50,410 nt of DNA from an uncultured archaeon (GTDB taxonomy: Archaea > Asgardarchaeota > Lokiarchaeia > Sigyniarchaeales > SOKP01): contig CAZWEM010000035.1 of the NCBI GenBank assembly GCA_964632315.1, positions 1 to 50,410 on the forward strand, in the 5' to 3' direction. The notes below the pieces were generated by a model. The model saw nothing but the letters and a program-made list of their open reading frames with translations, searched no databases and was not told where the DNA came from. The translations under genes and the position numbers were made by a program. Shown here in pieces: positions 103-14,631 of this stretch. The stretch's first letter is position 1; each line of letters begins with the position of its first letter.

Positions 103-189
103 GGTATTTCATGTAATTGAATAGTAAGAGAGTTCCCAACACCTTCAAAGGGCCATTTGCTTAGCCTGGTTAAAGCGCAGGTCTTATAA

Positions 190-240
190 GTGACCCACAA
201 TCATACAGAACATTAAACTTTATTGATTGTGACAGTAAAA
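190..240 (+). other. tRNA intron 1 (51 nt, non-canonical position 38/39)
   Basis: BHB: central helix TTAT(184-187)/GTAA(235-238), bulges AA|G and AA|A; internal hairpin CACAATCA/TGATTGTG. Confidence 0.8.
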
Positions 241-247
241 ACCTGAG

Positions 248-276
248 AGCCTAACAGATTTCCTTAAGGCATGGAA
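248..276 (+). other. tRNA intron 2 (29 nt, variable loop, 45/46)
   Basis: Bulges AG|A and AA|A flank a GCCT/AGGC helix; central helix CCTG/ATGG is imperfect (relaxed BHB); removal gives AG|ATC variable loop. Confidence 0.65.
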
Positions 277-360
277 ATCCGGGGTTCAAATCCCCGATGG
301 CCCATTTATTTTTTTCTAAAACAATCTAAAAATTATCGAAATAACAAAGAAATTTGCAAG

Positions 361-2537: not shown

Positions 2538-2630
2538 TGGCGGCCCTCGAGGGGAATCGAACCCCTATCCCTCCGCGGGATAACTAGGTTTGAAGCCTAG
2601 CGTCAGAGACCACTCCAACCGTCAAGGGCC
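2538..2630 (-). tRNA. selC: tRNA-Sec(UCA), 9/4 fold, CCA encoded
   Basis: Reverse complement: 9-bp acceptor GGCCCTTGA/TCGAGGGCC, G73+CCA; 7-bp D-stem GTTGGAG-TGGT-CTCTGAC; anticodon arm GCTAGG-CTTCAAA-CCTAGT; long variable arm TATCCC-GCGGA-GGGATA; 4-bp T-stem GGGG-TTCGATT-CCCC. Confidence 0.97.
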
Positions 2631-13620: not shown

Positions 13621-14199
13621 CTATTTGATTTGCCAGAGGATCTCATCTCCAAGCTCTTTCTTATATAAATAAACCCCATCTTGAAAAACTCGGGGATCTT
13701 TCTTTCTAATTCTGCAACTTCTTTTCATATTGGCTGCTGTTTGTCCAAGTGTTTCTTTATCAGGACCCATTAGAATAACATCATCACCAGAGATTTCTAC
13801 TTTAACATTTTCTAAATATTTTGTAACTCTAGGCGCTCTTTCTCCTAAAAAATTAACAAAATGTATTTCATGTTGCTTCGGTTTAATTTCTGCATTGAAC
13901 GGAAAATGACTATAACAAATTTTACAATAATATTTGTAATTATTTTGAACTCCAGTGATAAGATTTTTTACCAGATTATAAGCAGTTTTAGTTAGCGCTA
14001 CAGTTTCACCTTTAGGAAAGTAAGTAGAAAATTTTATGAGGTTCCCCTCAACGATCATTTTAATTCCCCTCATATGGGAAAAATCTTTGGTAATGGTTCC
14101 ATTTGGACCCTTAACAGTAATATGATGATCTCCTGTTACTTTAACCTCGATTCCTTCAGGAATCTCTAAAACCTCTTCTAAAAAGGCTGTTTTTACCAT
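13621..14199 (-). CDS. rpl6: 50S ribosomal protein uL6
   Basis: YSHFP, NFLGE, KDPRVFQDGVY. Confidence 0.97.
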   Translation of the reverse strand: MVKTAFLEEVLEIPEGIEVKVTGDHHITVKGPNGTITKDFSHMRGIKMIVEGNLIKFSTYFPKGETVALTKTAYNLVKNLITGVQNNYKYYCKICYSHFPFNAEIKPKQHEIHFVNFLGERAPRVTKYLENVKVEISGDDVILMGPDKETLGQTAANMKRSCRIRKKDPRVFQDGVYLYKKELGDEILWQIK

Positions 14200-14218
14200 T
14201 TTTTAGCACCTAAATCAA

Positions 14219-14631
14219 TTAATAAATATAACAAAGAGTCATCCCACCTATTTTTTTCTCTTCAGCATCTTTAATTGTCATAATTCCTTGATTGGTTGTA
14301 AGAATTATTAAACCTAAACCAGGAGCTGGTAATAATCTGCGCTCTAATTTTTCAAAGTCCCCTATTCCATAGTTCAATCTCATCAATGCTTTACATTCGT
14401 TTATTTTTCCATTTAAAGCAATCTTAAACTTTCCCGTGCGTCCGTCGTCATATCTTTCAAAATTGCGTCTAATAGAAAGATCTATTAGATTTCGCCTATA
14501 TAAGCGTATTGCTGAAAGATACGAAGAACACGTTGGATTAACTTACTCGCGGGGCTAACTATTACTTCCTTTTTTCTTGCCATTTCCGCATTTTTTAACA
14601 TGTTGCACGCGTCAGCTAGAGTGTTTGTCAT
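14219..14631 (-). CDS. rps8: 30S ribosomal protein uS8, split by a 29-nt intron: join(14631..14491,14461..14219), 127 aa
   Basis: Exon1 MTNTLADACNMLKNAEMARKKEVIVSPASKLIQRVLRIFQQYAYIGE; exon2 FERYDDGRTGKFKIALNGKINECKA...LLPAPGLGLIILTTNQGIMT...KKIGGMTLCYIY*; AGGTG SD; canonical position between uS14 and uL6. Confidence 0.95.
14462..14490 (-). other. Putative BHB (EndA-type) mRNA intron in rps8
   Basis: ATCTAATAGATCTTTCTATTAGACGCAAT; 9-bp hairpin; central helix GGCG/CGCA; bulges AA|A and AT|T; predicted cuts restore GAA|TTT (E-F). Confidence 0.85.

What the first reader, a model, noticed from the sequence alone, without database searches (positions are those of the whole stretch)
14219..14631. 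Candidate BHB (tRNA-type) intron inside the mRNA of essential ribosomal protein uS8
SEEN: the uS8 frame stops at ...TAT ATA GGC GAA|ATC TAA TAG and resumes in another frame at TTT GAA AGA TAT GAC GAC GGA. The intervening 29 nt (minus strand 14490-14462, ATCTAATAGATCTTTCTATTAGACGCAAT) contain a perfect 9-bp hairpin (TCTAATAGA-TCTT-TCTATTAGA). Its base continues as a 3-nt bulge (AA|A), a 4-position central helix between exon GGCG and intron CGCA (3 Watson-Crick pairs + G.A), and a second 3-nt segment (AT|T); the exon-exon helix is weak, so the motif is a relaxed BHB. Cutting after the second nucleotide of each bulge gives exactly YIGE|FERYDDG and a 127-aa protein. Shifting the junction by one base gives D-F or E-I instead. 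Both exons are otherwise intact, and all neighbouring r-protein genes are intact. KNOWN: archaeal EndA cleaves BHB motifs this way and RtcB ligates; YIGEFE is conserved in archaeal/eukaryotic uS8; the established archaeal protein-gene intron of this type is crenarchaeal cbf5. INFERENCE: this is enzymatic mRNA splicing of a ribosomal-protein transcript in an Asgard archaeon, which automated annotation would call a missing or pseudogenised rps8.
Basis: partly seen in the sequence, partly recalled or inferred. Interest (0 to 1): 0.97.

Follow-up and report, generated by a model that had tools for sequence, protein, structure and literature searches.

The report
tRNA-type mini-intron splits Asgard rps8
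The only gene for the essential ribosomal protein uS8 in this Lokiarchaeia-type (Asgard) archaeon is broken by a 29-base hairpin insert shaped like a tRNA intron, so its mRNA almost certainly has to be cut and rejoined by the tRNA-splicing enzymes, which the papers I could search document for only one archaeal protein gene (cbf5).

Summary
rps8 (minus strand 14631-14219) is interrupted by 29 nt (14490-14462). These fold as a 4-position central helix, a 3-nt bulge, a perfect 9-bp hairpin and a second 3-nt bulge. Cutting after the second base of each bulge gives ...AYIGE|FERYDDG..., which aligns without gaps to intron-less orthologues.

The insert is real DNA: an independent salt-marsh run and five JGI contigs carry it. 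This is the genome's only rps8. Ten of 132 genomes of the family carry such an insert, at two sites 9 nt apart. All ten share the same architecture, with compensatory changes in hairpin and central helix. The exon codons that pair with the intron co-vary with its presence. Synonymous differences far outnumber non-synonymous ones.

The genome encodes a catalytic and a non-catalytic EndA paralogue and RtcB. TBP, LeuRS and EF-2 carry 30-nt inserts of the same kind.

Splicing itself is not shown, because no RNA data covered the junction. The best explanation is an EndA/RtcB-spliced BHB mRNA intron (confidence about 0.88).

Published precedent in the papers I could search is cbf5 only. Earlier notes of this scan describe the same kind of intron in other ribosomal-protein genes of other Asgard genomes.

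The parts
14491..14631 (-). rps8 (uS8) exon 1, 47 codons, ATG at 14631, ends ...GGC GAA
   Evidence: P0001 hits PF00410 positions 2-43. If read unspliced, the frame stops after one more codon (ATC TAA).
14462..14490 (-). 29-nt BHB-type intron: A, 9-bp hairpin with TCTT loop, CGCA, AT
   Evidence: It is unique in the genome and matches no Rfam family.
14219..14461 (-). rps8 exon 2, 80 codons plus stop (TAA at 14221-14219), starts TTT GAA AGA
   Evidence: P0002 hits PF00410 positions 92-126. The joined protein aligns without gaps to intron-less orthologues.
14493..14496 (-). Exon strand of the central helix H (GGCG: the Gly codon GGC plus the G of GAA)
   Evidence: It pairs with 14464-14467. All site-A intron holders use GGC, whereas none of the 14 intron-less same-genus genes compared does; they use GGA, GGG or GGT.
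14464..14467 (-). Intron strand of the central helix H' (CGCA)
   Evidence: Gives 3 Watson-Crick pairs plus G.A. It is CGCC (4 of 4 pairs) in G081.
14490..14492 (-). 5' bulge AA|A; predicted cut between 14491 and 14490
   Evidence: The rule 'cut between the 2nd and 3rd bulge residue' is from PMC2738675. The bulge reads A-N-A in all 10 rps8 introns.
14468..14489 (-). Intron hairpin h': arms 14489-14481 and 14476-14468, loop 14480-14477
   Evidence: Perfect 9 bp. Compensatory C-G to U-A and A-U to G-C changes occur in G016 and G035.
14461..14463 (-). 3' bulge AT|T; predicted cut between 14462 and 14461
   Evidence: The first base is A in all 10 introns. In the RNAalifold model it lies in an internal loop rather than a clean bulge.
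14499..14504 (-). Weak outer exon-exon helix h, 5' strand (CUUAUA), pairing with 14454-14459
   Evidence: RNAalifold consensus of 5 site-A sequences: 5 pairs, offset from H by an asymmetric loop. No informative covariation.
14454..14459 (-). Weak outer exon-exon helix h, 3' strand

Best explanation
The 29 nt at 14490-14462 are an archaeal bulge-helix-bulge (BHB) intron inside the coding sequence of rps8.

Proposed mechanism. In the operon transcript, the last bases of exon 1 (GGCG) pair with CGCA near the 3' end of the insert. The rest of the insert forms a 9-bp hairpin stacked on that helix. This leaves 3 unpaired bases at each exon-intron border. The heteromeric splicing endonuclease (a catalytic and a non-catalytic EndA paralogue, both encoded in this genome) cuts after the second base of each unpaired triplet. 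RtcB joins GGC GAA to TTT GAA. The result is a 127-aa uS8 reading ...AYIGEFERYDDG... Unspliced mRNA stops two codons into the insert.

Shown here: the DNA insert, its structure and covariation, the exact frame restoration, single-copy status, purifying selection on both exons, and the presence of the enzymes.

Inferred: that cutting and ligation occur, and that EndA and RtcB are the enzymes that do it.
For: (1) The insert is real and this is the only copy. An independent DNA run bridges it without a difference (record 13). Five JGI contigs carry the site-A insert. Only one rps8 is found in a 99.5%-complete genome.

(2) Comparative anatomy. Ten of 132 family genomes with a match carry an insert. 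The inserts lie at two sites 9 nt apart: GE|FE in G000, G016, G035, G004 and G081, and AY|IG in G003, G067, G155, G070 and G084. All have the layout H(4) - bulge(3) - 9-position stem - loop - stem - H'(4) - bulge(3) and are 29-32 nt long.

(3) Structure conservation. 120 of 130 pair cells are paired, against 41-54 of 130 when the 3' partner is slid. Twelve of 13 pair positions show two or more pair types. RNAalifold finds the same H + bulge + hairpin in both sets on its own, with 8 compensatory pairs in the site-B set.

(4) The canonical cut rule (PMC2738675) gives a gapless AY[ILV]GEFE junction in all 10.

(5) Exon-intron co-variation. All site-A holders use Gly GGC, while intron-less congeners use GGA, GGG or GGT. 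In site B, the exon change GCC to GCT is matched by the intron change G to A. The closest intron-less relative uses GGG.

(6) Both exons are under purifying selection: 56 synonymous against 18 non-synonymous codon differences between G000 and G016.

(7) Frame arguments. The 30-nt inserts are in frame but full of stops, and the 29- and 32-nt inserts shift the frame. Only excision explains all ten.

(8) Machinery. There are two EndA paralogues with N- and C-terminal domains; by my reading one keeps the Y..H..K catalytic pattern and the other lacks the His. There is one RtcB. Asgard EndA is reported as the (alpha-beta)2 type with the L1 loop linked to broad specificity (PMC5829648).

(9) Same genome. 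Inserts of 30 nt with the same layout split TBP, LeuRS and EF-2 inside one Pfam domain with contiguous profile coordinates. Motif hits that rescue an ORF number 23-28 at the predicted cut, against 5-11 at shifted cuts.
Against: There is no RNA evidence for this gene. The two RNA runs that touch the region cover only 14047-14218.

The central helix has a G.A mismatch in five of the ten introns. The outer exon-exon helix is weak and offset, so the 3' cut site sits in an internal loop rather than a clean 3-nt bulge. Cleavage therefore depends on a broad-specificity enzyme whose range has not been measured for this lineage.

The bulge rule (A-N-A / A-N-N) used in the genome scan was taken from the rps8 introns themselves. 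Several scan hits were gene boundaries.
Confidence: 0.88

Rival explanations
1. Translational recoding: ribosomes bypass (hop over) or frameshift across the 29 nt, as in phage T4 gene 60, and the mRNA is never cut.
For: A stop codon follows the break directly and a stable hairpin starts there, which superficially resembles a bypass site.
Against: There are no matching take-off and landing codons. From GAA the next GAA lies beyond the junction and would delete F-E. At site B the next Tyr codon would delete IGEFER. A frameshift cannot rescue the 30-nt in-frame inserts, which carry 1-3 stops. Bypass does not explain the conserved 4-position exon-intron helix, its compensatory changes, or the fixed 3-nt spacing.
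Confidence: 0.03
2. A dead or dying gene: the insert is a small mobile or slippage-derived hairpin that inactivated rps8, and the organism survives through an unassembled copy.
For: The genome is a draft of 119 contigs with 8.6% contamination, so a missing copy cannot be formally excluded.
Against: uS8 is a universal ribosomal protein. Nine other genomes, several 96-100% complete, also have only the interrupted copy. Both exons stay intact with synonymous far exceeding non-synonymous differences across species that diverged at about 40% of codons. There are no other defects in the gene or operon.
Confidence: 0.03
3. The insert is removed from RNA, but by another route than EndA/RtcB, for example another structure-specific nuclease and ligase.
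For: The 3' site is not a textbook bulge, and no enzyme assay exists for this lineage.
Against: The geometry is exactly that of BHB substrates: a 4-bp helix, 3-nt bulges, and cuts after the second bulge base in 10 of 10 cases. The genome's tRNA genes hold candidate inserts of the same layout. The insert is too small for a self-splicing intron, and it has no Rfam match.
Confidence: 0.05
4. Assembly or sequencing artefact.
For: None found.
Against: The same insert appears in an independent run, in four other species' assemblies at the same site, and in five JGI contigs.
Confidence: 0.005

Closest known systems
BHB intron in the cbf5 (aCBF5 pseudouridine synthase) pre-mRNA of Desulfurococcales and Sulfolobales (Watanabe 2002; Yoshinari 2006; Yokobori 2009, PMC2738675)
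   Same: A short intron inside an archaeal coding sequence. It has a relaxed BHB with cut sites between the 2nd and 3rd bulge residues. It depends on a heteromeric splicing endonuclease. Its distribution is patchy, implying gain and loss.
   Different: Different host gene (a ribosomal protein) and a different phylum (Asgard, Lokiarchaeia-type). There are two alternative insertion sites 9 nt apart within one genus. The architecture is a very uniform 29-32 nt hairpin. Several other essential genes of the same genome are interrupted in the same way. Splicing of cbf5 was shown by cDNA and enzyme assay; here it is inferred.
Non-canonical tRNA introns of Thermoproteales and Asgard archaea (Marck and Grosjean 2003; bioRxiv 10.64898/2026.10.13.758758)
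   Same: The same motif and, presumably, the same enzymes. Many short introns sit at varied positions, with repeated gains. The tRNA genes of this genome hold candidate inserts of the same layout, several with the same A-N-A 5' bulge.
   Different: The host is an mRNA, so removal must be exact to the base to keep the reading frame. No tRNA body helps recognition.
Unconventional cytoplasmic splicing of HAC1/XBP1 mRNA in eukaryotes (Ire1 cut, tRNA ligase or RtcB joining)
   Same: Protein-only splicing of an mRNA at paired stem-loop sites, with ligation by the tRNA-splicing ligase (RtcB in metazoans). Removal changes the reading frame.
   Different: The nuclease is Ire1, not the tRNA-splicing endonuclease. 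That splicing is regulated by stress, whereas this one is presumably constitutive. This comparison rests on general knowledge and was not tested here.

Membership tests
Archaeal BHB (splicing-endonuclease) intron | A central 4-bp helix flanked by two 3-nt bulges on opposite strands | tested here: met
   The helix is GGCG/CGCA (3 Watson-Crick pairs plus G.A) with AAA and ATT triplets. Five of the 10 family introns have 4 of 4 pairs. This is the relaxed form, not the strict form.
Archaeal BHB (splicing-endonuclease) intron | Flanking helices h (exon-exon) and h' (intron-intron) that frame the bulges | tested here: inconclusive
   h' is a perfect 9-bp hairpin. h is only a weak 5-pair helix offset by an asymmetric loop at site A, and none is evident at site B. 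The layout is therefore of the HBh' type.
Archaeal BHB (splicing-endonuclease) intron | Cuts between the 2nd and 3rd bulge residue give the functional product | tested here: met
   The rule is from PMC2738675. Applied to 10 introns, it gives gapless AY[ILV]GEFE junctions in all.
Archaeal BHB (splicing-endonuclease) intron | Structure kept through compensatory change | tested here: met
   120 of 130 cells are paired, against 41-54 when slid. Twelve of 13 positions have two or more pair types. RNAalifold agrees.
Archaeal BHB (splicing-endonuclease) intron | The organism encodes a splicing endonuclease of a broad-specificity type and an RNA ligase | tested here: met
   Two EndA paralogues are present and one RtcB. 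The catalytic versus structural assignment is read from the presence or absence of the His in the Y..H..K pattern and is my inference. The L1 loop was not examined.
Archaeal BHB (splicing-endonuclease) intron | The intron is absent from mature RNA | not testable with these tools
   Tried without success. The RNA runs cover only 14047-14218, and no spliced-junction contig was found.
cbf5 pre-mRNA intron (as a homologous intron lineage) | Located in the cbf5 gene of Crenarchaeota | tested here: not met
   The host gene is rps8 (PF00410) in a Promethearchaeota relative. The mechanism class is the same, but it is not the same intron.
Translational bypass (T4 gene 60 type) | Matching take-off and landing codons that give the conserved protein | tested here: not met
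   No matching codon pair restores YIGEFE at either site.
Self-splicing group I or II intron | Catalytic RNA core of hundreds of nucleotides | tested here: not met
   The insert is 29 nt, and there is no Rfam match at E <= 1 on it.

The most novel reading that the evidence does not exclude
The rps8 intron is one visible member of a lineage-wide, actively turning-over population of uniform ~30-nt introns. These would be removed by the tRNA-splicing enzymes from the mRNAs of core genes (uS8, TBP, EF-2, LeuRS and others) in Lokiarchaeia. They would be gained repeatedly at neighbouring sites wherever a few exon bases can pair with the insert. That would amount to a protein-enzyme-based mRNA intron system, with ongoing intron gain, in close relatives of eukaryotes.
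Probability: 0.6. Interest if true: 0.9.

Novelty: new member of a known kind. Interest (0 to 1): 0.8.

Why it matters
In the papers I could search, splicing of an archaeal protein-coding message by the tRNA-splicing endonuclease is documented only for cbf5 in Crenarchaeota.

Here an essential, single-copy ribosomal protein gene of an Asgard archaeon depends on it. The same genome interrupts TBP, EF-2 and LeuRS in the same way.

If confirmed at the RNA level, this would have four consequences:
- Core gene expression in these organisms would be tied to EndA/RtcB activity.
- It would explain 'missing' or 'pseudogenised' marker genes in Asgard MAG annotation and completeness estimates.
- The two-site, high-turnover pattern (at least 9 state changes among 40 taxa) would give a tractable system for asking how such introns are gained.
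- It bears on how interrupted protein genes could be tolerated before spliceosomal introns.

Tried and rejected
RNA evidence, none obtained:
- The only two RNA runs that hold part of the stretch (X19, X20) cover 14047-14218, the start of uL6. They say nothing on splicing.
- An exact search of JGI metagenome contigs for the spliced site-A junction found nothing.
- A protein search for a full-length product of the spliced gene found P0003 (127 aa, 98% identical to exon 2, Logan). Its contigs are only 84% identical in DNA and use GGG for Gly, so this is an intron-less relative and not a spliced transcript.
- P0004 and P0006 are likewise intron-less relatives near G023.

Genome scan:
- The first script timed out.
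- A loose motif plus ORF-rescue filter showed no excess over shifted-cut controls. An excess appeared only after requiring A-N-A / A-N-N bulges.
- Among the strict hits, C1:95310 is the gcvH/gcvP boundary.
- C31:40755, C38:36081 and C13:50431 look like gene boundaries.
- C27:25047 is ambiguous, and C3:12835 has no Pfam support.

Other:
- The MAFFT alignment A1 of all ten motifs put gaps in the stem, so I tabulated pairs by structural position in a script instead.
- The intron has no second copy in the genome, so I found no sign of a multi-copy mobile element.
- ARAGORN intron calls for tRNAs were too imprecise for a clean comparison with tRNA introns.

Full report
**1. What is in the sequence**

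On the minus strand, an ORF starting at ATG 14631 encodes the N-terminal 47 residues of uS8. It ends ...TAT ATA GGC GAA, and the frame then runs ATC TAA TAG. Twenty-nine bases further on, in another frame, TTT GAA AGA TAT GAC GAC GGA opens the remaining 80 codons down to TAA at 14221-14219. Both pieces hit Pfam Ribosomal_S8, at profile positions 2-43 and 92-126. The neighbouring ribosomal-protein genes (uS14, uL5, eS4, uL24, uL14, uL6, eL32, eL19, uL18, uS5) are intact ORFs in the usual order.

The 29 nt at 14490-14462 read A, TCTAATAGA, TCTT, TCTATTAGA, CGCA, AT.

**2. Is it real, and is it the only copy?**

- A 227-nt contig from a salt-marsh DNA run of another study spans 14335-14561 without a single difference (record 13).
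- Five JGI metagenome contigs carry the same kind of insert at the same codon.
- A search of the whole genome (99.5% complete, 119 contigs) with PF00410 finds only these two exon pieces.

**3. Relatives**

Among 60 relatives, all 24 genomes of other families have an uninterrupted rps8. Within the window's own family (132 genomes with a match, 13 genera), ten carry an interrupted gene and no intact second copy.

Reading the DNA shows two insertion sites 9 nt apart:
- Site A lies between the Glu and Phe codons of YIGE|FE. It occurs in G000 (this genome), G016, G035 and G004 of the same genus, and in G081 of another genus. Lengths are 29-32 nt.
- Site B lies after the Tyr codon, AY|IGEFE. It occurs in G003 (same genus) and in G067, G155, G070 and G084 (four other genera). 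Lengths are 29-30 nt.

The site-B inserts share almost no sequence with site A or with each other. Even so, all ten have the same layout: 4 exon bases, 3 unpaired bases, a 9-position stem, a loop of 4-7, the return stem, 4 bases complementary to the exon bases, then 3 unpaired bases.

Tabulated by structural position, 120 of 130 cells are standard pairs. The figure is 41-54 of 130 when the 3' partner is slid by 1-3 positions. Twelve of the 13 pair positions show two to four pair types. RNAalifold, run separately on each site's sequences, returns the same helix-bulge-hairpin arrangement. It finds 2 compensatory pairs in the closely related site-A set and 8 in the site-B set.

**4. The cut rule and the protein**

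For BHB motifs the cleavage sites lie between the second and third residues of each bulge (PMC2738675, read). Applying that rule to the ten structures removes 29-32 nt. In every case it yields ...AY[I/L/V]GEFE[R/L]Y.DG..., which aligns without a gap to 22 intron-less orthologues.

The 30-nt inserts are in frame but contain one to three stops. The 29- and 32-nt inserts shift the frame. Frameshifting, read-through and hopping cannot each account for all ten; excision can. No matching take-off and landing codons exist for a bypass that would keep YIGEFE.

**5. Exon-intron co-variation and selection**

- All five site-A holders, and the five JGI contigs, use GGC for the Gly whose bases form the central helix. 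None of the 14 intron-less genes of the same genus that I compared does; they use GGA, GGG or GGT.
- The nearest intron-less relative found in the protein collection is 96-98% identical in protein and 84% in DNA. It uses GGG.
- At site B the exon strand is GCCU in four genomes. In G070 it is GCUU, and there the intron strand changes from .GG. to .AG..
- Between intron holders, synonymous codon differences far exceed non-synonymous ones: 56 against 18 for G000 and G016, and 51 against 29 for G000 and G004. Both exons are therefore kept as coding sequence.

**6. Machinery**

The genome encodes two splicing-endonuclease paralogues of 207 and 205 aa, each with the N-terminal and catalytic-type C-terminal domains. 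By my reading of the sequences, one keeps the Tyr-His-Lys pattern and the other lacks the His. That is what a catalytic plus structural subunit pair looks like.

Published work assigns Asgard archaea the (alpha-beta)2 enzyme with the L1 loop linked to broad substrate range (PMC5829648). One RtcB ligase gene is present.

**7. Not an isolated case in this genome**

I scanned both strands for the motif. I then asked whether removal at the predicted cuts joins two frames that are each open for at least 40 codons, while the unspliced frame stops.
- With loose criteria there was no excess over controls in which the 3' cut was shifted by 1 or 2 bases.
- Requiring the bulge pattern seen in the rps8 introns (A-N-A and A-N-N) gave 23-28 hits, against 5-11 in the controls.
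- Pfam continuity confirms three of them. TBP (C18:19083-19112, 30 nt) is split at position 8/9 of its second repeat. LeuRS (C41:26254-26283, 30 nt) is split between profile positions 46 and 48. A DUF35/ChsH2-type OB protein (C43:10093-10121, 29 nt) has only the second half of the OB domain in exon 2.
- EF-2 (C25:29359-29388, 30 nt, before EQERGIT) is split inside the GTPase domain, between profile positions 37 and 49. I looked for this one after an earlier first-reader note.
- Other hits were gene boundaries.
- The rps8 intron sequence itself occurs only once in the genome.

**8. Evolution**

A tree of uL6 plus eL32 from 40 genomes has modest resolution, with 17 of 37 inner branches open. It scatters the holders:
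- G016 and G035 group with the intron-less G023.
- G004 groups with the intron-less G015 and G024.
- G070 groups with the intron-less G069.
- G155 and G067 group with the intron-less G156.

At least 9 state changes are needed. The site-A intron is nearly identical in G000, G035 and G004 although about 60% of codons differ between the exons. This fits the slow evolution expected of paired stems, and it does not by itself show transfer. I cannot tell whether sites A and B reflect independent gains or a shift of one intron.

**9. What is not shown**

No RNA data reached the junction. Searches for a spliced form in metagenome contigs and in the protein collection found only intron-less relatives. 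Cutting and joining, and the identity of the enzymes, are therefore inferred.

**10. Known or new**

Six full-text searches and three papers read for this point gave only cbf5 as an archaeal protein gene with a BHB intron. The 2026 preprint on Asgard tRNA introns does not treat mRNAs. The library lacks most subscription journals, so a report may have been missed.

Within this scan the same kind of intron has been noted before on other DNA: eS30, eS26, uL11, eL39, uL2 and DnaG in other Asgard genomes, and other genes of this genome. One earlier follow-up reports environmental RNA with a spliced eS26 message, which I did not check.

I file this as a new member of a known kind (an endonuclease-spliced pre-mRNA intron). 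Its wider setting may be more than that.

Noticed in passing
window 150-304 (+): A tRNA-Ile(UAU) gene that default ARAGORN misses but intron mode finds. The sequence shows a ~50-nt insert after the anticodon loop and a second ~30-nt hairpin insert (about 251-280) before the T arm.
   Followed up: partly
L042 (G084 C188:38100-38700, minus strand): A stop-riddled copy of the rps8 exon-1 region lies just upstream of rpl14. It is about 4.5 kb from that genome's real, site-B-interrupted rps8.
   Followed up: no
L043 (G123 C7:199600-200200): Behind uS14 there is only an exon-1-like rps8 fragment ending ...YIGEFEVCLL*. The intact rps8 lies 15 kb further along the same contig. This suggests a rearrangement or insertion that broke exactly in the region where relatives carry introns.
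   Followed up: no
G000 C18:19083-19112 (+), C41:26254-26283 (-), C25:29359-29388 (-), C43:10093-10121 (-): Inserts of 29-30 nt with the same BHB layout interrupt TBP, LeuRS, EF-2 and a DUF35/ChsH2 OB-fold protein in the same genome. Pfam profile coordinates are contiguous across the break for the first three.
   Followed up: partly
all ten rps8 introns (window 14462-14490; L033-L041): Every intron carries at least one stop in the upstream reading frame; in this window it is ATC TAA TAG. Unspliced mRNA would therefore give only a short truncated peptide. Ten of ten is somewhat more than AT-rich sequence alone would give by my rough estimate, which I did not compute formally.
   Followed up: no
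whole genome G000: ARAGORN with introns allowed finds only 30 tRNA genes in a 99.5%-complete genome, several with odd calls. Many tRNA genes are probably too interrupted to be recognised.
   Followed up: no
window 2538-2630 (-): A tRNA-Sec gene (anticodon TCA) is present, so the organism probably uses selenocysteine.
   Followed up: no
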